NCBI GenBank assembly: GCA_965116885.1
Contig: OZ220741.1
Span: 2,080,001-2,144,000, forward strand
From: Candidatus Latescibacterota bacterium
GTDB taxonomy: Bacteria > Latescibacterota > UBA2968
Reading direction: 5' to 3'
Length of the DNA: 64,000 nucleotides
The position numbers and the translations under genes are program-made. Below are positions 1,464 through 13,757 of this stretch, piece by piece. The number at the start of each line of letters is the position of its first letter. The first letter of the stretch is position 1. The notes beneath the pieces are model-generated. The model ran no database searches. It was not told the origin of the DNA and was given only the letters and a program-made list of their open reading frames with translations.

Positions 1464-2714
1464 ATGACGCACTTTTTGAGACATAGCCTGTTTGCTCTGC
1501 TGGCTGTTTTTCTGTCTTTCCACCCGATTTTTGCTGCTGAAATTCCCCAGGGAGATCCCGGAGAGTTGGGGTTTTCTGCGGAACGCCTTGCGAAGATCCA
1601 ACCGACAATGCAAGCGCTCGTGGATTCTGGGAAGTTTGCAGGTGTTTTGACGTTGATCGCTCGAAAGGGCAAGATTGTGCATTTTGAGACTGCGGGTTTG
1701 CGGGATCGGGAATCGAATAAGCCGATGACTGAGGATACGCTTTTTCGCATTTATTCTATGACCAAACCGGTTACCAGTGTTGCTATTATGATGCTTTACG
1801 AAGCGGGCAAGCTGAAGCTGGACGATCCGGTGTCTAAGTTTATTCCCGAGTTTGCCGAGACAAAGGTTTATACGGGTGGCGGGACCGAGAGTCCTGTTCT
1901 GGTGCCGCTCGAGCGCGAGATAACGATTGCGAATTTGTTGTCGCATACGTCTGGTTTGACGTACGGCATTTTTGGGCAGACGTCCGTGGATACGCTTTAT
2001 CGGATTGCGAATCTGTATTCGTTCAATTCAAATGTCAAATATGCGCAGAAGGTGGCCCAGTTGCCTTTGCGTTTTCAGCCCGGGACGCGATGGCTCTATA
2101 GCGTAGCGACCGATATCCTCGGCAGTGTGGTTGAGGTCGCTTCCGGTATGTCTTTGGGCGCGTTTTTTACAGAGCGCATTTTTGTGCCTTTGGAGATGGT
2201 CGATACGAGTTTTTACGTGCCTGAGGACAAGCGCGATCGCCTGGCTACGGTGTATGGTAAGGACGATGAGGGTAATTTGGATGCGCGTAGCCTTCGGAGC
2301 AATACGCGGCGCAATGCACGGGAGTCCGGTGGTGGCGGGTTGGTGAGTACGGCGCGGGATTATCTCCGCTTTTCCCAGATGTTGCTCAATGGGGGCGAGT
2401 TGTACGGTACGCGCATTTTGAAGCCGGAGACGATCCAGCTTATGGCGAGCAATCATTTGCCAGAGACGGCGCGTTACCGACACCGCCAGCGCAAGAGCGA
2501 TGGTTTTGGCTATGGTTTTTCTGTGATTGTGGATGAGACGGAGACGGCGTGGGAGGATAGGAATGGGACGTATTACTGGTCGGGTATTGCCAAGACGCAT
2601 TTCTGGATTGATCCGCAGAATGAGATGGTTTCTATGGTGTGGACCCAGTTGCGCGGGTCGGGCAATATTACGCGGGCTTTCCAGCCTCTGGTTTACGAAG
2701 CACTTGTAGAGTAG
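1464..2714 (+). CDS. secreted serine hydrolase, beta-lactamase class C family
   Basis: Signal peptide; FRIYSMTKP (SxxK), LLSHTSGL, PGTRWLYS, GGGGLVSTARDY. Confidence 0.92.
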   Translation: MTHFLRHSLFALLAVFLSFHPIFAAEIPQGDPGELGFSAERLAKIQPTMQALVDSGKFAGVLTLIARKGKIVHFETAGLRDRESNKPMTEDTLFRIYSMTKPVTSVAIMMLYEAGKLKLDDPVSKFIPEFAETKVYTGGGTESPVLVPLEREITIANLLSHTSGLTYGIFGQTSVDTLYRIANLYSFNSNVKYAQKVAQLPLRFQPGTRWLYSVATDILGSVVEVASGMSLGAFFTERIFVPLEMVDTSFYVPEDKRDRLATVYGKDDEGNLDARSLRSNTRRNARESGGGGLVSTARDYLRFSQMLLNGGELYGTRILKPETIQLMASNHLPETARYRHRQRKSDGFGYGFSVIVDETETAWEDRNGTYYWSGIAKTHFWIDPQNEMVSMVWTQLRGSGNITRAFQPLVYEALVE

Positions 2715-2720
2715 GGAGGC

Positions 2721-2749
2721 TTGACAAAAGTATCGAACTTTATTAGGTT
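2721..2749 (+). promoter_or_regulatory. putative sigma70 promoter for tRNA-Glu
   Basis: TTGACA, 17 nt, TAGGTT, about 20 nt upstream of the tRNA. Confidence 0.55.
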
Positions 2750-2769
2750 GTCGCCATCTTGTTGTGAGT

Positions 2770-2845
2770 GACCCCGTCGTTCAGTGGCCTAGGACACCAG
2801 ACTCTCACTCTGGAGACGGGGGTTCGACTCCCCTCGGGGTCACCA
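2770..2845 (+). tRNA. tRNA-Glu(CTC)
   Basis: Acceptor stem GACCCCG/CGGGGTC, anticodon arm CCAGA-CT-CTC-AC-TCTGG, GTTCGACTC T-loop, encoded CCA. Confidence 0.97.
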
Positions 2846-2869
2846 AAAATATATTGTTTTTCAGATATC

Positions 2870-2910
2870 AAAAAGGTCGTGAGGAATAAACCCTCACGAC
2901 CTTTTGTTTT
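2870..2910 (+). terminator. intrinsic terminator after tRNA-Glu (part of the left island repeat)
   Basis: aaaaaggtcgtgagg-aataaac-cctcacgaccttttgtttt. Confidence 0.85.
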
Positions 2911-2962
2911 TCGTTTTGATTTTTTGGGGCTGGCGGGGAAAATACTGGCGGATGTGTGATAT

Positions 2963-3328
2963 TTATGTATGGTGTTTTTGATAAAAGTCTTTTACTGTTG
3001 GTGGTGTCTCATCTGATTGGCAAAGACCCTGTCGAATTTTGACCAATAGTTCCTGTGATATAGGCGGTGCGTTGCTACAGTCACGTAGAATGATTCTGCT
3101 TCTCCATTCTTCAATTAGACAAGCATCCTCATAGTAGATAATTGATTTTTTACTGATATTTGGATGGTCGTCAGGCGAGAGTATGCATGTTTCATCTGAT
3201 CCTCTACGCCATGAAGTTACATTCACCATTATTGTTTGTGGTGGATTGCCTACACACTCTGTTAAAAACAAATATAAGTGCCCACCGCCCAGATCATCGA
3301 GCCATACGCATCTTCCCGCTAATAACAT
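2963..3328 (-). CDS. putative PanT-type toxin (possibly PemK/MazF-like fold), partner of the Panacea antitoxin
   Basis: 121 aa; starts 2 nt after the Panacea gene stop; HLYLFLT...VNVTS...DETCIL...DHP...SIIYY pattern. Toxin role inferred from context. Confidence 0.55.
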   Translation of the reverse strand: MLLAGRCVWLDDLGGGHLYLFLTECVGNPPQTIMVNVTSWRRGSDETCILSPDDHPNISKKSIIYYEDACLIEEWRSRIILRDCSNAPPISQELLVKIRQGLCQSDETPPTVKDFYQKHHT

Positions 3329-3330
3329 AT

Positions 3331-3957
3331 TTATCTCGTATTATCATTCTCCATATTTCTAAGCATATTTTCAAACTTTGCTTTTGCATCAAATTCTTGC
3401 CTGATTGTTATTAGATCCTCGTCAGACCATCCCGTAGCTTTAAGCAAGGTATTCCAATCTATGGGATTAGATGAACCCCCTGGATCATCAAACTCTGGTA
3501 GAGAGTGCAGATGGTTCTTTAATTGCCCAAAGGATTTATTTCCAAATTCCTTAAATACATCATTTATCAGATCAAGTTGTGCTTGTGATAGTTCATCACT
3601 GCTTATATCGTCTTTAATTAGTTTAATAATATACCCTTGTGGTCTGGAAAAATATTGAGACCAGTATTCGCCTTCCCAGGGTTTGCAAACAAGATCGTAT
3701 GTATGACTTGGCGTTGGTCCAAATGGTAGATTATACGGACGGTCAAAAGTCACGGGACGACCACGACGCTCCAAAGAGGTTCTATCAATGAGGTATATCA
3801 ATTTGACAAGTTTATACACACTAATTTGACCGCCAGAATAATGTGCAAGTAAAGCAGCAACTTGCGTTGTCCTGCGCTCATTAAACTCAGGAATATCTAA
3901 TAGACTTGTATCAACCATGATAGTATCAGACATTTTCAAGTCCTTTGAACGTGTCAT
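3331..3957 (-). CDS. Panacea-domain (DUF4065/SocA/GepA) antitoxin
   Basis: KLVKLIYLIDR...G.PVT.D...LPFGPTPS..YD, ELS...LI..V...FG......L....H..PE; characteristic DUF4065 motifs. Start could be a later Met. Confidence 0.85.
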   Translation of the reverse strand: MTRSKDLKMSDTIMVDTSLLDIPEFNERRTTQVAALLAHYSGGQISVYKLVKLIYLIDRTSLERRGRPVTFDRPYNLPFGPTPSHTYDLVCKPWEGEYWSQYFSRPQGYIIKLIKDDISSDELSQAQLDLINDVFKEFGNKSFGQLKNHLHSLPEFDDPGGSSNPIDWNTLLKATGWSDEDLITIRQEFDAKAKFENMLRNMENDNTR

Positions 3958-4065
3958 AAAATATTACGACACATATTTCGTTGTATTATAGCTCAAATAT
4001 ACAAAGAAAGCAATTTCCCCAAAATCTGAAATGATCCAGCTCAAAATACGAAACTCTGCATGAGA

Positions 4066-5334
4066 TCACTCCGGAAGATGGACATCTTCCTCGCCATCGT
4101 CTTTAATTCCCATGTAGTGTAGCACTTCGTCTATGACATCATCAAATTCCACTTGCTTTGCAAGATTGACCAATTTGTCATAAGTAATTTTGTCGCGTCG
4201 ATGGGCTTCGATAGCCATACCCGTGAAATTGAGCGCAAAATTACTAAAGGGGTGTTCTCGCTCTTTTTTTTCTATGTTCAGACGTCGTGCAATTCGCCGT
4301 GCTTTCTCTTTTTCTTGGAAAAGTTGGTCAAATAATTCTTCGGAAAGAAATTTGGTGTTTCTCAATCGGTACAAGGCGGCTTCAAAGCTAATTCCAAAGT
4401 ATGCACAGAACTTGACGACGTCGTAAAGCGTAATGATTTGCCAGGATGCCAGGCGGCGGTAATGTCCTACAAGAGGATCAGGATCAGGTTGCTCGGTATA
4501 GGCCAACAGTCTTTCTCTACTGGCGGACGCCCCTTTATCGATATTTTTTAGAAATTGACTCACGCCTTCTTCTGGCATGAGAAACGCCGCTGCAAAAGCA
4601 TTCGCACGCACTTCGAATAAATCGCGGTCATTTGAAATTTTACTGATGGCACTGACTTTATCACGGTCAAGCAATATGTGACCGTATTCATGGGCTATGG
4701 TAAATGCGACTCGGGCTTTCGCTCTATCAAGATGCACTTCGTTGATGAAGATGCACAGCTGTATCTCCGCTTCGACCATAAAAATACCCGATATCTGATC
4801 GTCCAAACGGATTTCAATAACCGGTATCCCCTGAGATTCCACCAATTCAGCCATGTCGCGTATGGGATTAATGCCCAACCTGAGACGACTTCGTTCCGCC
4901 TCTGCTGCATGTTCACCCATTTGAATGGCTTCCCAAACATTTTTGGGTTCACCATAGTCATATACAGGCGGTAGGTTCCGTTCTTGATCTAGTTCTAAAA
5001 GTTTTTGCAGATTTCCATATTCTCTCAAGAGTTCGTGTGCGTCCCTCAAGGATTTATAGAAGATATGATTTTGTAAGAGGTCTGGATGAGCGCGAAATAG
5101 AACAGCCAGCGCGTCTTTCTCGACAGGCTTTTCTTCTACGAAACTGGCCATATCTCGTCCATAAAGACGCGATAGACGCATGAGTTCAAGTGAACTGACC
5201 GCCCGGTGTCCCGACTCGATTTGAGAAATTGCAACACGGGTGAGCGCAACGTGATCAGCAACCTGCTGTTGGGTCAACCCGATTGCTTCACGCGCACTTT
5301 TTAATCGCTGTCCCAACTCTCGCTGCGTCAACAT
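4066..5334 (-). CDS. XRE-family HTH fused to ImmA/IrrE (peptidase M78) Zn-metallopeptidase
   Basis: LGQRLKSAREAIGLTQQQVA...ISQIESG HTH; FTIAHEYGH (HExxH); EVRANAFAAAFLMP. Start placed at ATG 5334 after a GAGGAG RBS. Confidence 0.92.
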   Translation of the reverse strand: MLTQRELGQRLKSAREAIGLTQQQVADHVALTRVAISQIESGHRAVSSLELMRLSRLYGRDMASFVEEKPVEKDALAVLFRAHPDLLQNHIFYKSLRDAHELLREYGNLQKLLELDQERNLPPVYDYGEPKNVWEAIQMGEHAAEAERSRLRLGINPIRDMAELVESQGIPVIEIRLDDQISGIFMVEAEIQLCIFINEVHLDRAKARVAFTIAHEYGHILLDRDKVSAISKISNDRDLFEVRANAFAAAFLMPEEGVSQFLKNIDKGASASRERLLAYTEQPDPDPLVGHYRRLASWQIITLYDVVKFCAYFGISFEAALYRLRNTKFLSEELFDQLFQEKEKARRIARRLNIEKKEREHPFSNFALNFTGMAIEAHRRDKITYDKLVNLAKQVEFDDVIDEVLHYMGIKDDGEEDVHLPE

Positions 5335-5406
5335 TGTATTATCTCCTCTACATGAGTAACTATCGCCACTGGTCAATTGGAACCTGAAGATACCCAATTG
5401 TCCCCT

Positions 5407-6837
5407 CTACATGTAGTAACTATAACTAATCTGAGGTTCAGGATCTTCCTGTGGATCAAGATATTTCATGATTTCTCCTACTTTCCTGGCACATTGTATT
5501 GTAATCGGATATTTTCCATCAAATTGAGTATTGTTCCAATTCATTTTAGTCAACCCAAGAATCTCTTTACAGATAATATTTGGTGACTCGTCCGACTCAA
5601 TCAATCTAATTTCAATCGGCTGAGGAATATAAAGACCAGGATAAGTTTTGTAGTGTTTAACAGAACCTCGTGTGTAAAGTATATGATTGCTTCTATCGAA
5701 CTCAAGATGAGTTCCTCTACCTGGAGGGTATGCACCTTCGCGAAATAGTCTCATTTTGGTATCTAAAATTGTGACAAAATCAACTGCATTTATACGCATT
5801 TTGTCTGTAGCCTGTCTAAATCCGTCTAATTCAGCTTCATTAAAAATTGATGACTTATGGAGAACTAATCTCGCAGGGGAATTTTCAAGTGCAATCTCAT
5901 ATTCTTTGAGAGCTCTCAACAGCAATTCATAGGCTTGTTCTGAACTTAAATGAGGCATTCTATCTTCCTTACCAATATCGACAGATGTACCTCTCAAGAT
6001 TACATTGTGACCGAGTTCATCGAATATTTGTGCGAGACTTGTATTGAGCGTTTTTTTATCTCGGCTTCGGTAGAAACCGATTCCAGCAAAGCAAATAGAT
6101 GGTCTATTTATATCCGGTACCAATCTCCAAGGGACGGTCTGATTAGCCTTGTAATAAAGTGCTGTACAGAAATTCCAGGCTCTTGTAGCATCGTCTTGTT
6201 GCCCCTTGGGATTTTGTTCCAAAGAAAGTTCTCTTGCTAATTGAAGAGGTTTACCTAAATGCATGGTTTTTGCTTTTAATGCTCTTCTAAAATTGGACTC
6301 AATCTGATCTGCATTAGAATAATCCTCTATTTCTTCCTCAATGGGTTGTCTTTTTTGATTAGCTATTTCATCATAAAGCTCATTTGGAATAACACATACT
6401 ATGACATCAACATTTCGGTTCTGTGCAAGAAATCTTACTTGTTCAGAGTAAATTTCAACAGCCTTATCGATTCTTTCTTCCCAATCAGAGATATTTCTAA
6501 TTTCTCGCATTGTTGAATTACGCAGATTACGGATAATTTCATCCTCGATTCTGAGTTTTGCTTTAAATCCTGATTCTGTATTGAAACCACAAAACGGCAA
6601 AAATAACAATGGTTGCTTGTTATTTGGCTTTGCTGGAATGTACTTTGAACATCTCTCTAACCAATTATGCAATTTTTCTAAACAATCGCTTGTGCCCACA
6701 CCCCCAACAAGAATATGATCTCGCCGTGCCCTCAGTTTAGAGTCATATACATCATATTCAGCTATACCTGCCCGCGGGCAGATATGGGTGTTTCGTCCAA
6801 ATTCAAGATCGGGTTCGTGAATATTGTTTAGTCTCAT
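5407..6837 (-). CDS. short prokaryotic Argonaute (MID + inactive PIWI)
   Basis: 476 aa; EPDLEFG N-terminus; MID FRRALKAK...PLQL...QQDDATRAWNFCTALYYKA..PW; PIWI CFAGIGFY (catalytic D absent), RLVLHKSS, RGT, LYTRGSV, EILGLTKMNWN, PITIQCARKVGEI, C-terminal YYM. Confidence 0.95.
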   Translation of the reverse strand: MRLNNIHEPDLEFGRNTHICPRAGIAEYDVYDSKLRARRDHILVGGVGTSDCLEKLHNWLERCSKYIPAKPNNKQPLLFLPFCGFNTESGFKAKLRIEDEIIRNLRNSTMREIRNISDWEERIDKAVEIYSEQVRFLAQNRNVDVIVCVIPNELYDEIANQKRQPIEEEIEDYSNADQIESNFRRALKAKTMHLGKPLQLARELSLEQNPKGQQDDATRAWNFCTALYYKANQTVPWRLVPDINRPSICFAGIGFYRSRDKKTLNTSLAQIFDELGHNVILRGTSVDIGKEDRMPHLSSEQAYELLLRALKEYEIALENSPARLVLHKSSIFNEAELDGFRQATDKMRINAVDFVTILDTKMRLFREGAYPPGRGTHLEFDRSNHILYTRGSVKHYKTYPGLYIPQPIEIRLIESDESPNIICKEILGLTKMNWNNTQFDGKYPITIQCARKVGEIMKYLDPQEDPEPQISYSYYM

Positions 6838-8303
6838 ATTTCTAATGATAAGGGTAAAGGATCTTGGGAATCTTTCATCCTCCCTCGGTCTTGTTTAGTT
6901 TCTCCCGTCAGCCATTCATTATCATCAATCGATAATTCCATATCAAAATTCAGGAGATCTCCAAAAGACAAAAAAGGATAAGTATAATTAGGCCTGAATA
7001 GGTTTGGAGGTCTATCATGTTTTATTATATGGACAATTGCTTTGAGATGGTTGAAAACATGTTCATTCCTTTCTCTTTTTTTTAAATAATCCACCCTATC
7101 TGCCATATAGTAAGATTTTCTATAAGTATCCCTACTTATAAACCATTCAGGTTTAATCAAAATAAACCACCGACCACCAAATCGTTTATATTGAATGAGG
7201 AATGATAGATGTTTGCAACTTAGAATCTCGTGGGGAGAATCTCTTTTCATTGTTCGTTTATAAACTTCTCGGCTATTTGTTTTTTTACCCTGCCATTGTT
7301 CCCGCCTAATTGGATGGCCATCAACTTCAAAAAATATAAAGAGCTTATCTTCATGTTGCCACTGAATCTGTTTGTGATACAATTTTTGTTGCATACATCT
7401 ACCTAAAAGAGAGACAAAAACTCTTTCGTGATCTATATCTTTATCATAAAATTCTTCGGTGGCTATTATTCTCGTTGTGCTGGGGTTAATAAGGCTTGTA
7501 AGAGGTAGTTTGTCATCATTGAGATCATGAAATGTGATGAGTTTATTCTTATGAGAAACCCAGTCTAAACTGAAATTTAACCCTTTTTGTCTCAAGGCCT
7601 CTCTTAATATGTCTCTCGTCGAACTGTTCTTTTTCAATTCGCTACTATTCTCTATAATAACATTTCTGGCGATAGCTAAATCAGAAATGTACAGTTTTTC
7701 AGGAAAGAAAATTTCCAATAGATTCAGATAAAGAGTTTCTGATTGTGGTTGGGAGAGAATAGCCTGATTAAAAATAGGTTTGCTTTCTTCGCCAAAATGC
7801 TGCTCAAGTATGTTTTCTACTCTGCGTAATTTTTCCAAAGGAAATTCTGAGATTTTTTTAAGTAAGTCTCGATAATCACGTATGTCATTTTTCTTATCAA
7901 AAGAGAATTTATCTTGTATTATTCTGCCAAATTCTCGTCCTTGATATGTTCTTTGTTTTTCTGTCAAAATATAGATGATTAGATGATCGTATTTTTCGTA
8001 CAGTTTACGATCAACAAATGTTTTTAAAGTATCCTTGATTTTTTTGCTACCAGATGTTGACGTAATTTGATACGCGATTCTCGTTTTATCGTCGGCCAAG
8101 TCTATCCCTGGAAAATTAGGACTTTCAGATACATTTAGATTTCTCAAATCTGAATGTCCATAGATTTCAGAAAACAACGGAATTAATACATTTTCAGATA
8201 CAATATTGATATCTGTCTTACTCATTGCTGTTGCGCCTTTGACCTGAGCCACGAATCTTGACATCAATTCATTGATTCTATCTTGAGATTTTTTTAAATT
8301 CAT
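6834..8303 (-). CDS. SMEK-like N-terminal domain fused to APAZ; short-pAgo partner/effector
   Basis: N-term DINIVSENVLIPLF..IYG..LRNLN....NFPGIDLAD....AYQITS....KIK.TL (SMEK-like); C-term E.LYLNLL...P..LY, LITFHDL, F..LL, KHLSF....RFGGRWFILIKPEWFIS.D, LKKRERN..V.NH (APAZ-like). ATGA overlap with pAgo. Confidence 0.8.
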   Translation of the reverse strand: MNLKKSQDRINELMSRFVAQVKGATAMSKTDINIVSENVLIPLFSEIYGHSDLRNLNVSESPNFPGIDLADDKTRIAYQITSTSGSKKIKDTLKTFVDRKLYEKYDHLIIYILTEKQRTYQGREFGRIIQDKFSFDKKNDIRDYRDLLKKISEFPLEKLRRVENILEQHFGEESKPIFNQAILSQPQSETLYLNLLEIFFPEKLYISDLAIARNVIIENSSELKKNSSTRDILREALRQKGLNFSLDWVSHKNKLITFHDLNDDKLPLTSLINPSTTRIIATEEFYDKDIDHERVFVSLLGRCMQQKLYHKQIQWQHEDKLFIFFEVDGHPIRREQWQGKKTNSREVYKRTMKRDSPHEILSCKHLSFLIQYKRFGGRWFILIKPEWFISRDTYRKSYYMADRVDYLKKRERNEHVFNHLKAIVHIIKHDRPPNLFRPNYTYPFLSFGDLLNFDMELSIDDNEWLTGETKQDRGRMKDSQDPLPLSLEI

Positions 8304-8366
8304 TTTTTATTACCTAATAGGTTTCTATTTTACGTTGAATCTCTAAGCATGGGTTTTAATCATCCA

Positions 8367-8395
8367 AATATATCAATTTCTATCTTTGATGTCAA
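8367..8395 (-). promoter_or_regulatory. sigma70 promoter of the APAZ-pAgo operon
   Basis: Minus strand TTGACA (8395-8390), 17 nt, TG-n-TATATT (8372-8367), about 65 nt before the ATG at 8303. Confidence 0.65.
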
Positions 8396-8471
8396 TATAT
8401 GACTTTAAAATTTCAATTTTCCAAAATATAAAATAAGCGACAATCTTCAAATATGACTGTTTTACAATAGG

Positions 8472-8501
8472 ATATGGAGATTAAAAATTTAATCTCCATA
8501 T
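8472..8501. promoter_or_regulatory. perfect 14-bp inverted repeat, candidate operator
   Basis: atatggagattaaa-aa-tttaatctccatat. Confidence 0.55.
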
Positions 8502-8636
8502 TAGATTTGGGCAAATTTTAACGTATTTGTCAATGCTGTTTAACCATGTTTAAGCCTACAGTCTCGCAGAATCGATAGTGCTTTGGCGACTTCCTTCCCT
8601 TTTTGTTTGATGATATTGAAGCAGATCTTCGGGAGG

Positions 8637-8710
8637 CGACTCCCCTTGATATCGTTTTTTTGATATGAAAAAGGTCGTGGAATTTATTCCTCACGACCTT
8701 TTGTTTTTTT
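8637..8710 (+). repeat. degenerate copy of tRNA-Glu 3' segment and terminator (attR-like)
   Basis: cgactcccct...gatatgaaaaaggtcgtggaatttattcctcacgaccttttgttttt versus cgactcccct...gatatcaaaaaggtcgtgaggaataaaccctcacgaccttttgttttt at 2825-2910. Confidence 0.75.
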
Positions 8711-8735
8711 AGGCGACCAACATGTTTGGTGTGCT

Positions 8736-9740
8736 TCAGACGACTGCTGCTTCATCTATGGAAAAAAGATTTTGTTCAGAGTCAAGCGTTGCCTGGATGC
8801 CATTTGGAAGAATCATTTGAGGACTCGTATGCCCGATATCTACTTGTGTGAGAATGGGAAAATTAAATGCCGATGTATAATAACCGATCAATCCTTGCAG
8901 TAACTCTTCCTGGTCTTGAGATAGGTTGTTTACTTTTCCTATGATCAGACCAGAAATTTCTCTAAAAAGACCGATCTGCTGGCATTGTGCAAGGGCTTCC
9001 TCGGCATACATAAGAACCGTGTTTCCCATATTGACCTCTTCCAGATAAAGAATTTTACCGTGAAATGAAGGCCAAAATGGAGTACCATTCAATATCGGCA
9101 GGGTATGGAGATTGCCACCTATAAGAGGTCCTTGCGCTCTGCCACCTTTGAGCCAATGCCAACCAGCATTATTTTTCATTTTGCGCGGGCTGTTTTCATT
9201 GGGTGCATCATCTGTCCAGGTCTCCGGTGCTTCCAATGGTCCCGGGGCGGTTAGCGTAAACAGGACATCTTTTATACTTTCGAGTGTATAACTCAAGGGT
9301 TTCGGAAATTCGCTAAGACCGTTGAGCAGGGTTGGCCCGTGGAAAGTGACCATATTGAGACGGGCGTAGATGCCGAGTAGCAGGGCTGTATTCGCGCTGT
9401 ATCCCATCAAGATTTTGGGGGAACGCGCAATCAAATCCCAGTCGAGCAAGGGAAGGAGGGCATTGGTACCAGATCCTCCTGAGAGACAAAAAATCGCTTT
9501 GATGTCCGGGTCAGCAAATAGGTCGTGGAGATCATTGACACGCAATTGGGGGGCTGGATTCAAATGTTCGCGTTGATGGCGTGCGTTATTCGCTAATTGA
9601 ACTCTCAAACCGAGATCCTCAATAGCTGCTTGGGCACTGGAAAGCCAATTGTTAGCAAAAGAAAAAAATGAGGCAGCGGGCGAGGCAATCCCTACAGTAT
9701 CACCTGGTTTTAATCTCGGTGGTTTGATTATATTATTCAT
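8736..9740 (-). CDS. peptidase S66 (LD-carboxypeptidase/MccF-like)
   Basis: PPRLKPGDTVGIASPA, GGSG, MGYSANT (Ser), GGNL, ILYLEE (Glu), DIGHT (His). Start moved to ATG 9740. Confidence 0.9.
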   Translation of the reverse strand: MNNIIKPPRLKPGDTVGIASPAASFFSFANNWLSSAQAAIEDLGLRVQLANNARHQREHLNPAPQLRVNDLHDLFADPDIKAIFCLSGGSGTNALLPLLDWDLIARSPKILMGYSANTALLLGIYARLNMVTFHGPTLLNGLSEFPKPLSYTLESIKDVLFTLTAPGPLEAPETWTDDAPNENSPRKMKNNAGWHWLKGGRAQGPLIGGNLHTLPILNGTPFWPSFHGKILYLEEVNMGNTVLMYAEEALAQCQQIGLFREISGLIIGKVNNLSQDQEELLQGLIGYYTSAFNFPILTQVDIGHTSPQMILPNGIQATLDSEQNLFSIDEAAVV

Positions 9741-9756
9741 ACTCTGATATATCTGA

Positions 9757-9996
9757 TTAAAGCCTATCCTGTTCATCCGGCGGATCGACATCTGCTGCCT
9801 TTGCCATTGCAGATAGAAATTTCTCTTTGCCCCCGTGATTCCCACGCGCTTCAAGATATGTTTCGGTCGCAATAGCTGATGCTTTCTCGGCCACTGCCAG
9901 CATGATAAACTGTTCGAATGACATGCCTTCACGCTCGACAATATCACGGACTGTTGCGTGAAGCGAATCTGGTATGGTAATACTGATGGTTGTCAT
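9757..9996 (-). CDS. ribbon-helix-helix (CopG/HicB-like) antitoxin-family protein
   Basis: MTTISITIPDSLH..VR.I.EREG.S..QFI..AVAEK...YL..R pattern; no adjacent toxin visible. Confidence 0.75.
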   Translation of the reverse strand: MTTISITIPDSLHATVRDIVEREGMSFEQFIMLAVAEKASAIATETYLEARGNHGGKEKFLSAMAKAADVDPPDEQDRL

Positions 9997-10480
9997 AGTT
10001 GTTGTTCCATTTCTTTTTTGAAGATAAGATATTGCGTATATATTTTATGGGTGTGCATAAATTAGAAATCACACAACAATAGCCAGGACAGAAAGCCATC
10101 AGCCAAAACCATCACGCACAGCGCGTGAGACCGTTTCGCAGCGGATATTTTTATGGCATTCCAACTGTGCAGGCCACCGCATGATGTTCAGCCACTTGAG
10201 CAGTTTGCGCTGTGCAAGCCTCCCGGCGTTTGAGGGCGGCATTTTTGAACTGGCCTGAGGAACAGCCAGTTGTACCCCGCTCGCCTCCTTTTTTTTGCTG
10301 CTGAAAAAAAGGAGGTCGCCGCACGCCGCAGGCATGGCGTAGCCACACGCATGAAAAGAAAAATAGTAAAAAAACTCTATACGTCGTTGCACCACAACAA
10401 ATGAATTATCCACACCCTTCATATATTTAGCGCCTGAAAATAATACGCTATGTATATGTTTTTTGCAATAGGGTCGCGGT

Positions 10481-11119
10481 ATGAATAAGAAAAACGATGT
10501 CAGACCCATCGTGATTGGTGTTTCAGGAGGATCTGCCGCGGGCAAGACGACTTTTACGGATATGTTGGCCGATAGGCTCGCAGATTTTGGACCCGTCGTG
10601 CTCAATCAGGACAACTATTTCCGCGATTGGTCAGCGCTGCCAGAAGACGAGCGCGAGATCGAGCGGACGGCAAACCATCCGCGGGCTGTATTGTGGGAGC
10701 ATTTAATCGCGCATGTGAAATGTCTGCGCGAGGGACAGGCGATTGAAATGCCACCGCCCGGTACGCGCGCTTTTCGGCGGGGGGATGATCCCCAAAAGGT
10801 CGTGCCTGAGAGACTAATTATTGTGGAGGGGCACTTGATTTTTTCGCAAGAGACTCTGAGGTCTCTATTGGATATCAAGCTGTTTTTGGATGTGGATACA
10901 CACGAGCGGGTGCTCAGGCGCATGTTGCGGAATACGTCGAGTGGGATGTCGCTGGAAGATGCGGTGGCATGGTATCGTCGGGACGTTGTGCCCAATTATC
11001 GCGTCTATACAGAGCCGACGAGAGAGTACGCGGATTTGATCGTGCCGTTTGAAGGGGATGTGCAAGTAGCAGTAGATGTTGTGGCAAATGGCATACGGAG
11101 GATGATTCAACATAGATAG
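10481..11119 (+). CDS. udk: uridine kinase family protein
   Basis: IGVSGGSAAGKTT P-loop, QDNYF, IIVEG, LDIKLFLD, ADLIVP. Confidence 0.8.
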   Translation: MNKKNDVRPIVIGVSGGSAAGKTTFTDMLADRLADFGPVVLNQDNYFRDWSALPEDEREIERTANHPRAVLWEHLIAHVKCLREGQAIEMPPPGTRAFRRGDDPQKVVPERLIIVEGHLIFSQETLRSLLDIKLFLDVDTHERVLRRMLRNTSSGMSLEDAVAWYRRDVVPNYRVYTEPTREYADLIVPFEGDVQVAVDVVANGIRRMIQHR

Positions 11120-11192
11120 CAAGTATAGCTTGCCTCGCGTGTTTTCTGGTCGTAAATTTGTCTGTGATATGTTTGCGAGTCCATGAAAGGAG

Positions 11193-12029
11193 ATGATTAC
11201 TATGACCGTTCAATCCGATTGGGCTGTTCTCACAGATGAACAGCGGCAGTTTTTTGAGGACAATGGGTATCTCTTGATCGAAGACGCGCTGCCGCCCGAT
11301 GTGGTTGCCGAACTCAATGCGGCGGCTGATGAAATTTACGACCGGGAAAAGGCGGCTGGTGGTCTGGAGAAAACGGGCAAGCTCAATTTGCGGAATTGCA
11401 TCGTGCATCACGATGCTTTTCTTCAGTTGCTCGACTGGCCGGCCACGGCGCCTCTGGCGTGGCAGATTCTCAACTGGAATATCCAGATGATTACCTCGCA
11501 CCTCATTGTTTTGCCGTCTGGTCCAGAGCCTCCGGAAGAAGTGAAGCGCAAGGGCGGGTATCATCGCGATGGCGGTTCGTCTTCCCGGGAAATGACCGAA
11601 CCTCATCCGCGCATTTTGCTCAAAATTGCGTACGCCATCAGCGACCAGACAGATCCCGCATCGGGGGCGACGCAACTCGTGCCCGGGAGCAATCGGCTAT
11701 TTGGCAGGCCCGCGATTGATCCGGCAACGGGCCATCCGAGAGGGGCGATCAATATGAATGTCAAGGCGGGTTCGGCATTCATTTTTGAACAGCGCACGTA
11801 TCACGGCATTGGCAAAAACTGGTCGGGTTTTCCGCGCAAGACCATTTTTATGGGCTATGCGTATCGCTGGGTCAAGCCTATGGATTATATCAATATGCCC
11901 GATGAACTCGTTGCCCGCGCAAATCCCATTCAAAAACAACTCTTAGGTGCGGTCTCCGATCCGCTCAGTTTTTATATTCCGCAAGCACAAGATGTGCCGC
12001 TCAAAGAGCTTGTGGAAAATGGTGTTTGA
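11193..12029 (+). CDS. phytanoyl-CoA dioxygenase (PhyH) family Fe/2OG enzyme
   Basis: F.DNGYL.IEDAL, HRD, GAT.LVPGS, KAGSAFIF....YHG..N.S...R. Confidence 0.88.
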   Translation: MITMTVQSDWAVLTDEQRQFFEDNGYLLIEDALPPDVVAELNAAADEIYDREKAAGGLEKTGKLNLRNCIVHHDAFLQLLDWPATAPLAWQILNWNIQMITSHLIVLPSGPEPPEEVKRKGGYHRDGGSSSREMTEPHPRILLKIAYAISDQTDPASGATQLVPGSNRLFGRPAIDPATGHPRGAINMNVKAGSAFIFEQRTYHGIGKNWSGFPRKTIFMGYAYRWVKPMDYINMPDELVARANPIQKQLLGAVSDPLSFYIPQAQDVPLKELVENGV

Positions 12030-12030
12030 C

Positions 12031-12054
12031 GGGCGAAAAATTTTTCGCCCCTAC
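12031..12054 (-). repeat. GTAG-type REP-like hairpin between convergent genes
   Basis: Minus strand GTAG-GGGCGAAAAATTTTTCGCCC, overlapping the ilvD stop. Confidence 0.6.
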
Positions 12055-13757
12055 TCATCTGTAACACACCCCTCCGAAGCTGTTTTTACGTTTTTGATGT
12101 ATTTGTAAAGGGTGCCGCGGTTGGCTTTGTACAGCGGTTGGGCCCAGGCTGCGCGGCGTTTTTCGAGTTCTTCGGCAGAGACGTCCATGTTGATCTCGCC
12201 TTTTTGGCTGTCGATGGTGACCTGGTCGCCGGTTTGGACGAGGGCGATGGGTCCGCCTTCGATGGCTTCGGGAACGACGTGTCCGATGAGAAAGCCGTGC
12301 GATCCGCCCGAAAAGCGCCCATCGGTAATCAGCGCGACATCCTGTACCAATCCCGCGCCGGCCAATGCAGATGTGGGGGTGAGCATTTCCGGCATGCCGG
12401 GTCCGCCTTTGGGGCCTTCGTAGCGGATGATGATGACATTGCCTTTTTCGATTTTGCCCTGTTCGAGGGCGGCGAGCATGTCTTCCTCGCAGTCGAATAC
12501 GTTGGCCGCGCCTTTGAATACCTCGCCTTCTTTGCCCGTGATTTTTCCGACTGAACCTTCCGGTGCCAAATTCCCACGCAAAATTTGTAAGTGTCCCGTT
12601 GGCTTGATGGGGTCATTAAAGGGGCTTACGATGTCTTGCTGGCCTTCACCCGTGCCATAAGGAGGAAGGGCTTTTATGTCGGCGAGATTTTCGGCAATTG
12701 TTTTGCCCGTTACTGTCATCTGGTCGCCGTCGATGAGGTCGGCGTCGAGGAGCAATTTCATCATTGCGGGTGTCCCGCCGATGTCGTGAAGCTCTTCCAT
12801 GACGTAACGCCCAGAGGGTTTGAGGTCACACAGGAGGGGCGTTTCGTTGGATATGTGTTGAAATTCGTCGATGTCGAGGTCTATGTCATAAGCTCTGGCA
12901 ATGGCGAGCAGGTGGAGCACGATATTGGTGGAGCCGCCCGTGACAACGGCGAGGCGGATGGCGTTGAGGAAGGATTGTTTGGTGACGATGTCGCGCGGTT
13001 TGAGGTCGGCTTCGAGCAGGGCGCGAACGGCGTGACCGGCGTGGACACATTCGGCGTGTTTGTCGGGGTCTTCGGCAGGTGTGCAGGAGGAATAGGGCAG
13101 AGAGAGGCCCATGCATTCGATGGCGCTGGCCATGGTATTGGCGGTGTACATGCCACCGCAAGCACCGGCACCCGGGCAGGCGTGTTCGACGATTTCCTGG
13201 CGTTCGGCATCGCTTAGCGAGTCTGTGAGAAATTCGCCGTAGCTTTGAAAGGCAGAGACGATGTCGAGTTTGCGTTCTTCACCTTGAATGGTGGCGCAGC
13301 CGGGTTTGATGGTGCCGCCGTAGATCATCAGGGCAGGGCGGTTGAGGCGGCCCATTGCCATGACCACGCCGGGCATGTTTTTGTCGCAGCCGGGCAGCGC
13401 GATCAGGCCATCGTACCATTGCGCGCCCATGAGGGTTTCGATGGAGTCGGCTATGAGGTCGCGGGATTGAAGGGAGAAGGACATGCCGTCTGTGCCCATG
13501 GATATGCCGTCGGATACGCCGATGGTGTTGAAGCGCATGCCAACGCACCCGGCTTCGGTGACGCCTTTTTTTGTTTCTGCGGCGAGGTCGTTGAGGTGCA
13601 TGTTGCATGGGTTGCCTTCATACCAGACCGAGGCAATGCCGACCTGCGCTTTTTCCATGTCGGCGCGTGTCAGTCCGGTGGCATAGAGCATGGCCTGAGA
13701 TCCACCCTGGGATTTTTTTTGGGTGATTTGTGAGCTATACTTATTCAGTTTTGCCAT
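12051..13757 (-). CDS. ilvD: dihydroxy-acid dehydratase
   Basis: [56 protein letters not shown]. Confidence 0.97.

What the first reader, a model, noticed from the sequence alone, without database searches (positions are those of the whole stretch)
5407..8303. Short prokaryotic Argonaute paired with a SMEK-like/APAZ effector: candidate new short-pAgo immune subtype
Seen: a two-gene unit with an ATGA overlap. The second gene is a 476-aa short pAgo (MID + PIWI only). It has an RK-type MID (FRRALKAK...Q...LYYKA) and lacks the slicer aspartates (GIGFY, HKSS). The first gene has a C-terminal APAZ-like region. Its N-terminal ~170 aa is not TIR or SIR2 and does not look like a typical DUF4365/Mrr domain; it reads as SMEK-like (SE.VL...NLN....NFPGIDLAD....AYQITS). 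Established: inactive short pAgos use guides to sense invader DNA and activate an APAZ-fused effector (TIR in SPARTA, SIR2 in SPARSA, DREN/DUF4365 nuclease in SPARDA). Inference: the E...D...QxT pattern resembles a PD-(D/E)xK/Mrr-like nuclease core with Thr in place of the usual Lys, so this may be a guide-activated nuclease or abortive-infection system with a swapped effector. I do not know of a characterised SMEK-APAZ system.
Basis: partly seen in the sequence, partly recalled or inferred. Interest (0 to 1): 0.92.

Follow-up and report, generated by a model that had tools for sequence, protein, structure and literature searches.

The report
Short Argonaute with SMEK/Mrr nuclease partner
This is an intact two-gene bacterial defence unit, an inactive short Argonaute paired with a SMEK (Mrr-like) nuclease-APAZ protein, of a type that is already catalogued and partly characterised, so it is a new member of a known kind rather than a new immune subtype.

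Summary
The two genes are real, on the minus strand.

Gene 1 is SMEK_N (Pfam E 1e-45) joined to APAZ. Foldseek gives probability 1.00 to DREN-, HNH- and TIR-APAZ chains. Gene 2 is a short pAgo with an invariant R-K-Q-K MID pocket and no slicer aspartates.

The novelty claim fails:
- PADLOC-DB (2023) has full-length models for both proteins (E 5e-147 and 7e-181).
- The literature lists SMEK/Mrr-like-APAZ as a branch of clade S2B.
- The Kordia jejudonensis system was studied in 2020 and has been called SPARMA.
- The PDB holds its Mrr domain (26bh), which matches residues 4-171 (E 2e-29).
- 36 of 39 related genomic loci carry the same gene pair; the other three are cut by contig ends.

The likely mechanism is inferred. 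An RNA-guided pAgo/APAZ heterodimer recognises invader DNA, then oligomerises and activates the SMEK nuclease.

One new detail: this SMEK domain groups with SMEK domains of Poribacteria STAND NTPases (support 99/95), which indicates effector exchange between the two scaffolds. The pair lies on a 5.8-kb low-GC island flanked by direct repeats next to tRNA-Glu.

The parts
6834..8303 (-). Gene 1: SMEK(Mrr-like)-APAZ effector, 489 aa, including the TGA stop at 6834-6836
   Evidence: ORF and translation. PADLOC Aga_REase-PNTD1-PNTD2 PDLC02399, E 4.8e-147, residues 1-473 against profile positions 1-459 of 463. AF2 model mean pLDDT 87.3.
7779..8303 (-). SMEK / Mrr-like nuclease domain (residues 1-175). 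Conserved E37, D68, D71, Q79-x-T81 and K88.
   Evidence: Pfam PF21941 E 1e-45 and NCBIfam NF033859 E 1.2e-25. PDB 26bh 'Mrr domain from Kordia jejudonensis Mrr-APAZ pAgo', E 2.4e-29; with the domain profile, E 1.8e-46. Invariant residues. Domain model pLDDT 90.4, pTM 0.87.
7740..7778 (-). Flexible interdomain linker (residues 176-188). Similarity to the STAND-fused SMEK proteins ends here.
   Evidence: pLDDT below 50 at residues 180-186. Matches to SMEK-STAND proteins end at residues 172-183.
6837..7739 (-). APAZ region (residues 189-489; pAgo N-L1-L2-like)
   Evidence: Foldseek against PDB: DREN-APAZ 9qbp_C E 5e-18, HNH-APAZ 9om4_A E 1.7e-11, TIR-APAZ 8i88_C E 2.4e-11, all probability 1.00. 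phmmer 9qbp_A E 1.1e-11 over residues 227-470.
5407..6837 (-). Gene 2: short pAgo (MID + catalytically inactive PIWI), 476 aa. MID residues R184, K188, Q199 and K230. G254 and S329/S330 stand where slicer aspartates would be.
   Evidence: PADLOC pAgo_I PDLC02376, E 7.2e-181, full length. PDB SPARDA Agos 9qbp_B E 5e-80 and 9jsb_A E 1e-69; SPARHA Ago 9om4_B E 3e-67; SPARTA 8ifk_B E 2e-32. Conservation in 35 SMEK-associated pAgos.
8367..8395 (-). Promoter-like site TTGACA-17-TATATT with an upstream TG, 64 nt upstream of the gene 1 start
   Evidence: Consensus scan, 11 of 12 matches and the best site in 2700-9000. This is a consensus match only and is not shown to function.
2851..2911 (+). Left copy of a ~60-nt direct repeat holding a 14-bp hairpin, directly after tRNA-Glu (2770-2845). 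It is the left edge of the low-GC island.
   Evidence: The 20-mer occurs only twice in the window; 0 were expected by chance.
8649..8708 (+). Right copy of the direct repeat, the right edge of the low-GC island, just past the stop of the LD-carboxypeptidase gene
   Evidence: GC is 31-45% inside the island and 52-57% outside.
4066..5397 (-). Neighbour of uncertain membership: a fused XRE-HTH + M78 (ImmA/IrrE-like) peptidase gene. The likely start is ATG 5334, with a GAGGAG site upstream. It lies downstream of the pAgo on the same strand.
   Evidence: Pfam HTH_3 E 7e-11 and Peptidase_M78 E 1e-15. PADLOC RmrA E 4e-32 and capP E 2.6e-15. A relative is adjacent in only 1 of 36 related loci, L002, so it is not a conserved part of the system.

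Best explanation
The locus is an intact member of the SMEK (Mrr-like)-APAZ / short pAgo branch of clade S2B. This is the type exemplified by the Kordia jejudonensis KjAgo system and called SPARMA in one preprint. It is carried on a small, horizontally acquired defence island.

Proposed working, with the basis for each step:
1. The APAZ half of gene 1 supplies the missing N-L1-L2 part and forms a heterodimer with the MID-PIWI pAgo. This is inferred from homology to solved SPARDA, SPARHA and SPARTA complexes and from reports on KjAgo.
2. The pAgo loads a short guide, most likely RNA, through its R184/K188/Q199/K230 pocket and base-pairs with invader DNA. It cannot slice. The conservation and the absence of aspartates are shown here. 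The guide chemistry is inferred.
3. Target binding drives assembly of the heterodimers into a higher-order form. This brings the flexibly tethered SMEK domains together and switches on a PD-(D/E)xK-type nuclease centre built from E37, D68, D71, Q79 and K88. DNA is then degraded indiscriminately, and the infected or plasmid-bearing cell dies or goes dormant. This step is inferred from SPARDA and SPARHA, and from the use of the same SMEK domain as the N-terminal effector of oligomerising STAND NTPases.
For: Identity of the parts:
- Pfam SMEK_N E 1e-45.
- PADLOC full-length Aga_REase-PNTD1-PNTD2 E 4.8e-147 and pAgo_I E 7.2e-181.
- PDB Kordia Mrr domain 26bh, E 2.4e-29, and E 1.8e-46 with the domain profile.
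- The APAZ fold matches DREN-, HNH- and TIR-APAZ chains at probability 1.00.
- The closest solved pAgos are the S2B SPARDA and SPARHA Agos, at E 5e-80 to 3e-67. SPARTA Agos score E 2e-32.

The pair is a conserved unit:
- 36 of 39 SMEK-APAZ loci have the pAgo directly downstream. The other three are cut by contig ends.
- No third gene recurs among 126 flanking ORFs.

Conservation:
- E37, D68, D71, Q79 and K88 are invariant.
- R184, K188, Q199 and K230 are invariant in 35 pAgos. The slicer positions never hold D.

Domain layout:
- There are two confident domains joined by a low-confidence linker.
- In 41 of the 80 loci fetched, the SMEK domain sits at the N-terminus of a protein without APAZ. 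Eight of these were scanned. Five showed STAND NTPase families, one showed WD40 repeats, and two showed SMEK_N only.

Literature, passages read:
- SPARDA and SPARHA are activated by filament formation (abstracts; PMC12738770 passages).
- AlphaFold modelling of the Kordia system reproduced filament-type interfaces (bioRxiv 10.1101/2025.04.08.647717).

Context: a low-GC island with flanking repeats, next to a tRNA gene.
Against: - No activity, guide type, heterodimer or oligomer was tested for this protein pair.
- The canonical lysine of the (D/E)xK motif is replaced by Thr81, which is conserved in at least 90% of sequences. The active site is therefore non-canonical, and the role of K88 is only an inference.
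- The SMEK domain model has no significant structural match in the PDB library. There were 0 hits at E <= 0.001. The best hits are weak matches to restriction endonucleases, led by EcoT38I at probability 0.80 and TM 0.51.
- The papers read describe the nuclease activity of the only studied relative as weak and 'not studied in detail'.
- I found no in vivo defence data for any SMEK-APAZ system in the library searched.
- Collateral cleavage and filament formation are extrapolated from systems with different effector domains.
Confidence: 0.8

Rival explanations
1. It is a target-specific RNA-guided DNA nuclease. The SMEK domain simply replaces the lost slicer activity and cuts only the DNA strand paired to the guide. 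There would be no collateral degradation and no abortive infection.
For: [quoted passage not shown] PMC10810196 summarises it as mediating RNA-guided target DNA cleavage. Earlier comparative work proposed that APAZ-linked nucleases compensate for the lost PIWI activity (PMC6299218, passage).
Against: PMC12205087 describes the KjAgo activity as weak collateral cleavage of dsDNA and ssDNA. All the nuclease-linked S2B relatives studied in the papers read, SPARDA and SPARHA, are collateral nucleases. The SMEK domain hangs on a flexible linker and is also used by STAND NTPases that have no guide.
Confidence: 0.12
2. The SMEK domain is not a DNase. With Thr in place of the motif lysine, it could be an RNase, a DNA-binding or sensor module, or a toxic effector of another kind.
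For: T81 replaces the canonical Lys in at least 90% of family members. No significant structural neighbour was found. The reported activity of the studied relative is weak.
Against: The acidic and polar residues E37, D68, D71 and Q79, plus K88 on the following helix, are invariant across both APAZ-fused and STAND-fused forms. The predicted secondary-structure order around them is helix, three strands, helix, strand. From recall, this is the PD-(D/E)xK core order. The weak Foldseek hits are mostly restriction endonucleases. The PDB depositors and PADLOC label the domain Mrr / REase. Nuclease activity was reported for the Kordia complex.
Confidence: 0.06
3. One reading: a previously unrecognised short-pAgo subtype with a swapped-in effector.
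For: The N-terminal domain is indeed neither TIR, SIR2 nor DUF4365. Its SMEK domain groups with STAND-fused SMEK domains rather than with other APAZ-fused ones.
Against: The architecture has a dedicated PADLOC model. 175 SMEK proteins were counted among APAZ proteins in a 2023 survey. There is a 2020 biochemical study, a name (SPARMA) and a PDB entry. At least 120 full-length homologues are listed.
Confidence: 0.02
4. It is an ordinary SPARDA system, with a DREN/DUF4365-APAZ effector.
For: The APAZ part and the pAgo are most similar to SPARDA proteins among solved structures.
Against: There is no DUF4365 match at E <= 0.1. The N-domain is SMEK_N at 155 bits. PADLOC PDLC02398 matches only residues 183-473, the APAZ part. 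The SPARDA preprint states that DUF4365 and Mrr-like domains have different topologies.
Confidence: 0.01

Closest known systems
Kordia jejudonensis KjAgo + SMEK(Mrr)-APAZ, called 'SPARMA'. Kim, Jung & Lim 2020, BBRC 525:755 was not held in the library and is known here only through citing papers. PDB 26bh is its Mrr domain.
   Same: It has the same two-gene architecture. The SMEK/Mrr domains are homologous (E 2.4e-29 over residues 4-171). Both share the E, D...D, QxT and K residues in the printed alignment. The partner is an inactive short pAgo.
   Different: It comes from a different lineage and is diverged in sequence. This SMEK domain belongs to a sub-clade shared with Poribacteria STAND NTPases. 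Nothing has been tested biochemically here. The KjAgo pAgo itself was not available for comparison.
SPARDA (DREN/DUF4365-APAZ + short pAgo; Nba, Xau, Eae, Tmu)
   Same: It belongs to clade S2B. The pAgos are closely similar (E 5e-80 to 1e-69) with the same R/K/Q/K MID residues in the printed alignment. The APAZ fold is the same. The logic is probably the same: RNA guide, DNA target, collateral nuclease, filament.
   Different: The effector domain is SMEK/Mrr-like, not DREN. The SPARDA preprint describes the two topologies as different. There is no DUF4365 match.
SPARHA (HNH-APAZ + short pAgo)
   Same: It also belongs to clade S2B. The pAgo scores E 3e-67 and the APAZ scores E 1.7e-11 by fold. 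It is a nuclease effector activated by filament assembly (PMC12738770, abstract and passages).
   Different: It uses an HNH nuclease rather than a PD-(D/E)xK-like one.
SPARTA / SPARSA (TIR- or SIR2-APAZ)
   Same: The sensor module is the same: a short pAgo plus APAZ. Activation follows target binding and oligomerisation.
   Different: Their effectors are NADases, not nucleases. The pAgos are more distant (E 2e-32 and weaker).
SMEK-STAND NTPases (NACHT/AAA_16 + TPR/WD40). The L010 body matches PADLOC candidate family PDC-M54A.
   Same: They carry the closest relatives of this SMEK domain, at 62-73% identity. The conserved residues are the same. The domain is N-terminal and ends at the same boundary.
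   Different: The sensor is a STAND NTPase with repeat domains, with no pAgo and no APAZ.

Membership tests
Short prokaryotic Argonaute (inactive MID-PIWI) | About 450-500 aa with MID + PIWI only, and full-length similarity to known short pAgos | tested here: met
   476 aa. PADLOC pAgo_I residues 1-476 against profile 1-455 of 455, E 7.2e-181. PDB short pAgos matched over residues 6-461.
Short prokaryotic Argonaute (inactive MID-PIWI) | Absence of the DEDX slicer residues | tested here: met
   The column of G254 holds S/G/A. The column of S329 holds S/T. S330 is invariant. None is D in any of 35 sequences. The same residues appear in the inactive SPARDA Agos in the printed alignment. That these columns correspond to the slicer positions is recalled motif knowledge. 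It was not checked against an active Ago.
Short prokaryotic Argonaute (inactive MID-PIWI) | Conserved 5'-end binding pocket in MID (R/K-type) | tested here: met
   R184, K188, Q199 and K230 are invariant in 35 of 35 sequences. The type names are taken from a PMC12205087 passage. The assignment of residues to the pocket is recalled, not checked on a structure.
APAZ (N-L1-L2-like) effector proteins | APAZ fold in the C-terminal ~300 aa | tested here: met
   Foldseek probability 1.00 to DREN-APAZ, HNH-APAZ and TIR-APAZ chains, with 79 hits at E <= 0.001. PADLOC PNTD1-PNTD2 models match.
APAZ (N-L1-L2-like) effector proteins | Encoded directly upstream of, and forming a heterodimer with, a short pAgo | tested here: inconclusive
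   The gene order and ATGA overlap are met, as they are in 36 of 39 related loci. Physical binding was not tested because the complex predictor was unavailable.
SMEK / Mrr-like-APAZ branch of clade S2B ('SPARMA') | N-terminal SMEK_N domain homologous to the Kordia Mrr domain | tested here: met
   PF21941 at 155.4 bits against a cut-off of 27. NF033859 at 89 bits against a cut-off of 30. 26bh E 2.4e-29, and E 1.8e-46 with the profile.
SMEK / Mrr-like-APAZ branch of clade S2B ('SPARMA') | pAgo and APAZ fall in clade S2B on a phylogeny | tested here: inconclusive
   Only a similarity ranking was made. S2B representatives (SPARDA, SPARHA) score E 5e-80 to 3e-67, against E 2e-32 for SPARTA.
SMEK / Mrr-like-APAZ branch of clade S2B ('SPARMA') | RNA-guided DNA recognition with nuclease output | not testable with these tools
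   This needs biochemistry. It is reported for KjAgo only through citing papers.
PD-(D/E)xK nuclease superfamily (Mrr-like) | Restriction-endonuclease-like core fold | tested here: inconclusive
   The domain model is confident (pLDDT 90.4). Foldseek against PDB gave 0 hits at E <= 0.001. The weak top hits are mostly restriction endonucleases: EcoO109I E 0.053, EcoT38I probability 0.80 and TM 0.51, MspJI, and LlaBIII. 26bh was not returned by that library.
PD-(D/E)xK nuclease superfamily (Mrr-like) | Catalytic D ... (D/E/Q)xK motif with the lysine in place | tested here: not met
   D68 and Q79 are invariant, but the motif lysine position is T81, conserved in at least 90% of sequences. An invariant K88 lies seven residues later on the next helix. 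This is a variant active site, so the locus is filed as 'Mrr-like', not as canonical.
SPARDA sensu stricto (DREN/DUF4365-APAZ) | DUF4365/DREN effector domain | tested here: not met
   No DUF4365 hit at E <= 0.1. SMEK_N is the only family found.

The most novel reading that the evidence does not exclude
The SMEK nuclease is a plug-in effector that has moved repeatedly, and within single lineages, between two unrelated sensor scaffolds: the APAZ partner of short pAgos and STAND (NLR-like) NTPases. The copy in this window is the APAZ-borne member of a clade otherwise made of Poribacteria and Latescibacterota STAND proteins. If this is right, SMEK-APAZ systems and SMEK-STAND proteins share one activation rule, switch-on of a non-canonical (QxT + distal Lys) PD-(D/E)xK centre by induced proximity. 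One could then be used to work out the other. The direction of transfer is not resolved.
Probability: 0.5. Interest if true: 0.4.

Novelty: new member of a known kind. Interest (0 to 1): 0.25.

Why it matters
The finding should be downgraded. It does not reveal a new pAgo subtype.

It still has modest value. The SMEK/Mrr-like branch is the least studied of the nuclease-linked short pAgo systems. The searches made here found no dedicated in vivo or activation study. This locus is an intact, compact candidate for such work.

The link between APAZ-fused and STAND-fused SMEK domains gives a concrete, testable hint. The effector may be switched on by oligomerisation whichever sensor carries it.

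Tried and rejected
1. Complex prediction of two copies of the SMEK domain (residues 1-178). The queue was full, and one search was not sent on. One search reported the tool unavailable. No job ran, so neither self-association of SMEK nor APAZ-pAgo binding was assessed.

2. Fold search of the SMEK domain alone. There was no significant hit, so the PD-(D/E)xK fold could not be confirmed structurally. The library did not return 26bh.

3. AU test on the full 135-row tree. It did not finish in two runs. I replaced it with a set of 54 rows, hand-picked after seeing the first tree.

4. The HTH-M78 gene as a conserved third component. Rejected: it is adjacent in 1 of 36 related loci.

5. A second SMEK, APAZ or pAgo copy in the window. 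None was found by tblastn; the best other hit had E 0.22.

6. The 2020 Kordia paper is not held, so its content is known only through citing papers.

7. Literature searches. 'Mrr-APAZ' returned 0 papers. 'SPARMA' returned one relevant preprint among 18 hits. 'SMEK'+'NACHT'+'bacterial' returned 7 papers, none relevant. 'SMEK domain' returned 3 papers, of which one is on pAgo.

8. PADLOC found nothing for the Panacea gene or the 121-aa ORF.

9. One search failed on an out-of-range coordinate and was corrected.


Full report
OBSERVATION

The window has two adjacent ORFs on the minus strand, 8303..6834 (489 aa) and 6837..5407 (476 aa). They share a 4-nt ATGA overlap, which I read directly from the sequence.

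The pair sits in a stretch of 31-45% GC, against 52-57% on either side.

WHAT THE TWO PROTEINS ARE

Gene 1:
- It has one Pfam family, SMEK_N (PF21941), at residues 9-151. E is 1e-45 and the score is 155 bits against a cut-off of 27.
- NCBIfam gives the same result.
- No TIR, SIR2 or DUF4365 match appears at E <= 0.1.
- PADLOC-DB 2.0.0 (2023) matches it end to end with a dedicated model, Aga_REase-PNTD1-PNTD2 PDLC02399. E is 4.8e-147, with residues 1-473 against profile positions 1-459 of 463.
- Against PDB sequences, residues 4-171 match 'the Mrr domain from Kordia jejudonensis Mrr-APAZ pAgo' (26bh, E 2.4e-29). Residues 227-470 match DREN-APAZ and HNH-APAZ chains.
- An AlphaFold2 model built on 59 homologues is confident (mean pLDDT 87.3). 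It shows two domains, 1-175 and 189-477, joined by a low-confidence linker.
- Foldseek places the model with the APAZ subunits of SPARDA, SPARHA and SPARTA at probability 1.00.

Gene 2:
- It has no Pfam hit.
- It matches PADLOC pAgo_I over its full length (E 7.2e-181).
- It matches solved short pAgos of SPARDA (E 5e-80 to 1e-69), SPARHA (E 3e-67) and, more distantly, SPARTA (E 2e-32).
- I aligned it with 34 pAgos that lie next to SMEK-APAZ genes. R184, K188, Q199 and K230 are invariant.
S330 is invariant. None is ever D.
- That those columns are the slicer positions rests on recalled motif knowledge and on identity with the inactive SPARDA Agos in the printed alignment. I did not align the protein to an active Ago.

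HOW COMMON IT IS

- A word-indexed search found 216 proteins with E <= 1e-5 among 7273 candidates. All 120 listed carry PF21941 and are 358-526 aa long. Those that have names are called 'SMEK domain-containing protein'.
- An exhaustive phmmer search of 1.84 billion representatives gave 2754 hits at E <= 0.001 and 250 at E <= 1e-30. These mix full-length SMEK-APAZ proteins, APAZ-only pieces and SMEK domains on longer proteins.
- A scan of species-representative genomes gave 416 relatives among 450 matched stretches, of which 80 loci were kept.
- 39 of those 80 loci encode SMEK and APAZ together. 36 of the 39 have a pAgo ORF directly downstream, at E 1e-137 to 1e-226 for complete ORFs. The three without one (L007, L062, L079) end at a contig edge. 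24 of the 36 have the same 4-nt overlap.
- The hosts span Cyanobacteriota, Chloroflexota, Acidobacteriota, Pseudomonadota, Gemmatimonadota, Bacteroidota, Ca. Poribacteria and one Methanocellales archaeon.
- I scanned up to two flanking ORFs on each side of these 36 loci, 126 ORFs in all, against Pfam. No third gene recurs. The flanks are typical defence-island and mobile-element genes: restriction-modification, TIR, AbiE, HEPN, AAA_21, SIR2-HerA, integrases, transposases, a relaxase and plasmid TrfA/KfrA.

WHAT IS ALREADY KNOWN

All of the following comes from passages read in the named papers.
[quoted passage not shown] It counts 175 SMEK proteins among APAZ proteins.
[quoted passage not shown] It cites a study showing a SMEK-APAZ/short pAgo heterodimer with RNA-guided DNA cleavage.
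- PMC12205087 says KjAgo uses guide RNA against DNA and, with SMEK-APAZ, shows weak collateral nuclease activity.
- bioRxiv 10.1101/2025.04.08.647717 calls the Kordia system SPARMA. It reports that the apo form is monomeric and that AlphaFold models resemble SPARDA filament interfaces.
- The original paper, Kim, Jung & Lim 2020, is not held.
- I found no paper devoted to in vivo function or activation of a SMEK-APAZ system.

The architecture is therefore known and partly characterised.

THE SMEK ACTIVE SITE

- In 59 full-length homologues and in 41 SMEK domains taken from both architectures, E37, D68, D71, Q79 and K88 are invariant. T81 is present in at least 90%.
- The predicted secondary structure puts E37 on a helix, D68-D71 at a short strand, Q79-x-T81 at the end of the next strand, and K88 at the start of the following helix.
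- I infer that K88 supplies the missing lysine. This is not shown.
- A confident domain-only model (pLDDT 90.4, pTM 0.87) found no significant PDB neighbour. The weak top hits are mostly restriction endonucleases. The fold assignment therefore rests on the labels given by the PDB depositors and PADLOC, and on the SPARDA preprint.

A NEW DETAIL: THE EFFECTOR MOVES BETWEEN SCAFFOLDS

- The other 41 of the 80 loci carry the SMEK domain at the N-terminus of proteins without APAZ, many of them about 800-1565 aa long.
- I scanned eight of these against Pfam. Five show STAND NTPase families (NACHT, NPHP3_N, AAA_16), some with TPR repeats. One shows WD40 repeats, and PADLOC gives that protein a STAND_TPR match. 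Two show only SMEK_N.
- The body of one Poribacteria protein (L010) matches the PADLOC candidate family PDC-M54A from profile position 299 onward. SMEK therefore replaces that family's own N-terminal part.
- The window's SMEK domain is 62-73% identical to such STAND-fused domains from Ca. Poribacteria and Latescibacterota. It reaches at most 62% with any APAZ-fused domain in the genome set, and 66% with one from the protein search. Both comparisons leave out the near-identical metagenomic relatives at 86-90%.
- On a quick tree of 135 domains, the window and its close relative P0005 lie in an 18-row clade with 16 STAND-fused domains (SH-aLRT 100).
- I then hand-picked 54 rows after seeing that tree. 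On a careful tree of these, the corresponding 13-row clade (11 STAND-fused) has support 99/95. The architecture label needs 7 changes, 6-8 across bootstrap trees, and at least 3 are forced by well-supported branches.
- An AU test rejects a single clade of all 32 APAZ-fused domains (delta lnL 126, p 1.8e-10).
- Rows shorter than 150 aa were left out of both trees.
- Whether the window's domain is nested within the STAND clade or is sister to it is unresolved. So is the direction of transfer.
- Similarity to the STAND proteins stops at residues 172-183, which is the predicted flexible linker.

MECHANISM

Shown here: the parts, their conservation, their pairing and their layout.

Inferred, in order:
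1. APAZ binds the pAgo as a heterodimer.
2. A short guide, probably RNA, is held through the R/K/Q/K pocket.
3. Complementary invader DNA is recognised without slicing.
4. Target binding drives higher-order assembly, which brings the tethered SMEK domains together.
5. A metal-dependent nuclease centre becomes active and DNA is degraded indiscriminately, giving population-level protection.

Steps 1-3 rest on homology to solved S2B complexes and on the reports on KjAgo. Steps 4-5 rest on SPARDA and SPARHA, and on the fact that the same domain serves STAND NTPases. That STAND NTPases act by oligomerising is established knowledge of the family, recalled and not tested here.

The main rival is target-specific cleavage without collateral damage. 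A minor rival is that the Thr-variant site is not a DNase.

CONTEXT

- The pair lies on a 5.8-kb island directly after tRNA-Glu (2770-2845).
- The island is bounded by a ~60-nt direct repeat at 2851-2911 and 8649-8708. Each copy holds a perfect 14-bp hairpin. The 20-mer core occurs nowhere else in the window, and 0 matches were expected by chance.
- The island also carries a fused HTH-M78 peptidase gene, a Panacea-domain gene and a 121-aa ORF. No integrase was seen.
- The best promoter-like site in the region lies 64 nt upstream of gene 1.
- The organism was not determined.

VERDICT

The domain reading and the mechanistic guess are largely right, but the novelty claim is wrong. This is a new member of a known kind.

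Not assessed: protein-protein binding, because the complex predictor was unavailable; a reference phylogeny; the closed metagenome and viral collections; and the supplements of the preprints.

Noticed in passing
window 2770-2911 and 8649-8708: A 5.8-kb low-GC island lies directly after tRNA-Glu(ctc). It is bounded by a ~60-nt direct repeat, each copy holding a perfect 14-bp hairpin. The 20-nt core occurs only at these two places in the window. No integrase gene is present in the island.
   Followed up: partly
window 3331-3957 (-) and 2963-3328 (-): A 208-aa protein with a SocA/Panacea antitoxin domain (PF13274, E 1e-14) is followed directly by a 121-aa ORF with no family match. This looks like a PanA-type toxin-antitoxin pair on the same island. 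PADLOC found nothing for either.
   Followed up: partly
window 4066-5397 (-): A fused XRE-HTH + M78 (ImmA/IrrE-like) peptidase gene lies just downstream of the pAgo. It matches PADLOC RmrA and capP/capH models and NCBIfam spr1629-family repressor/antitoxin. It could be a damage-responsive regulator, but a relative neighbours only 1 of 36 related pAgo loci (L002).
   Followed up: partly
window 5341-5360 and 5404-5424 (-): An imperfect ~20-25-nt direct repeat copies the last codons and stop of the pAgo gene to a position just before the likely ATG (5334) of the HTH-M78 gene. It may be a recombination scar.
   Followed up: no
window 8472-8501: A perfect 14-bp inverted repeat, ATATGGAGATTAAA / TTTAATCTCCATAT, lies upstream of the promoter-like site of gene 1. 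It could be an operator or a terminator.
   Followed up: no
L010, L011, L018, L024, L027, L030, L034, L038, L039, L044 and others (locus positions about 8001-12670): Ca. Poribacteria and Latescibacterota genomes encode ~1550-aa proteins with an N-terminal SMEK domain on a STAND NTPase body. The L010 body matches PADLOC candidate family PDC-M54A from profile position 299 onward. Cyanobacterial versions carry TPR or WD40 repeats.
   Followed up: partly
L048:5666-8348: An archaeal (Methanocellales MAG) SMEK-APAZ + pAgo pair. Its upstream neighbours are a TIR-domain gene and an nSTAND3/HEAT-repeat gene.
   Followed up: no
L071:7935-9428: In this Alcaligenaceae MAG, the SMEK and APAZ parts are called as two consecutive ORFs (121 aa and 375 aa) that abut at 8300/8301. 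This may be an in-frame stop, a pseudogene or an assembly error.
   Followed up: no
L045 and L006 (both Caldilineaceae MAGs): This is a second case where a STAND-fused and an APAZ-fused SMEK domain from the same family of bacteria are each other's closest relatives. SH-aLRT support is 95 on the 135-row tree and 91 on the 54-row quick tree.
   Followed up: partly
window 8736-9947 (-) and 1464-2714 (+): The genes flanking the island are ordinary housekeeping types: an LD-carboxypeptidase (Peptidase_S66) and a beta-lactamase-family serine hydrolase. tRNA-Arg(acg) lies at 1321-1397.
   Followed up: no
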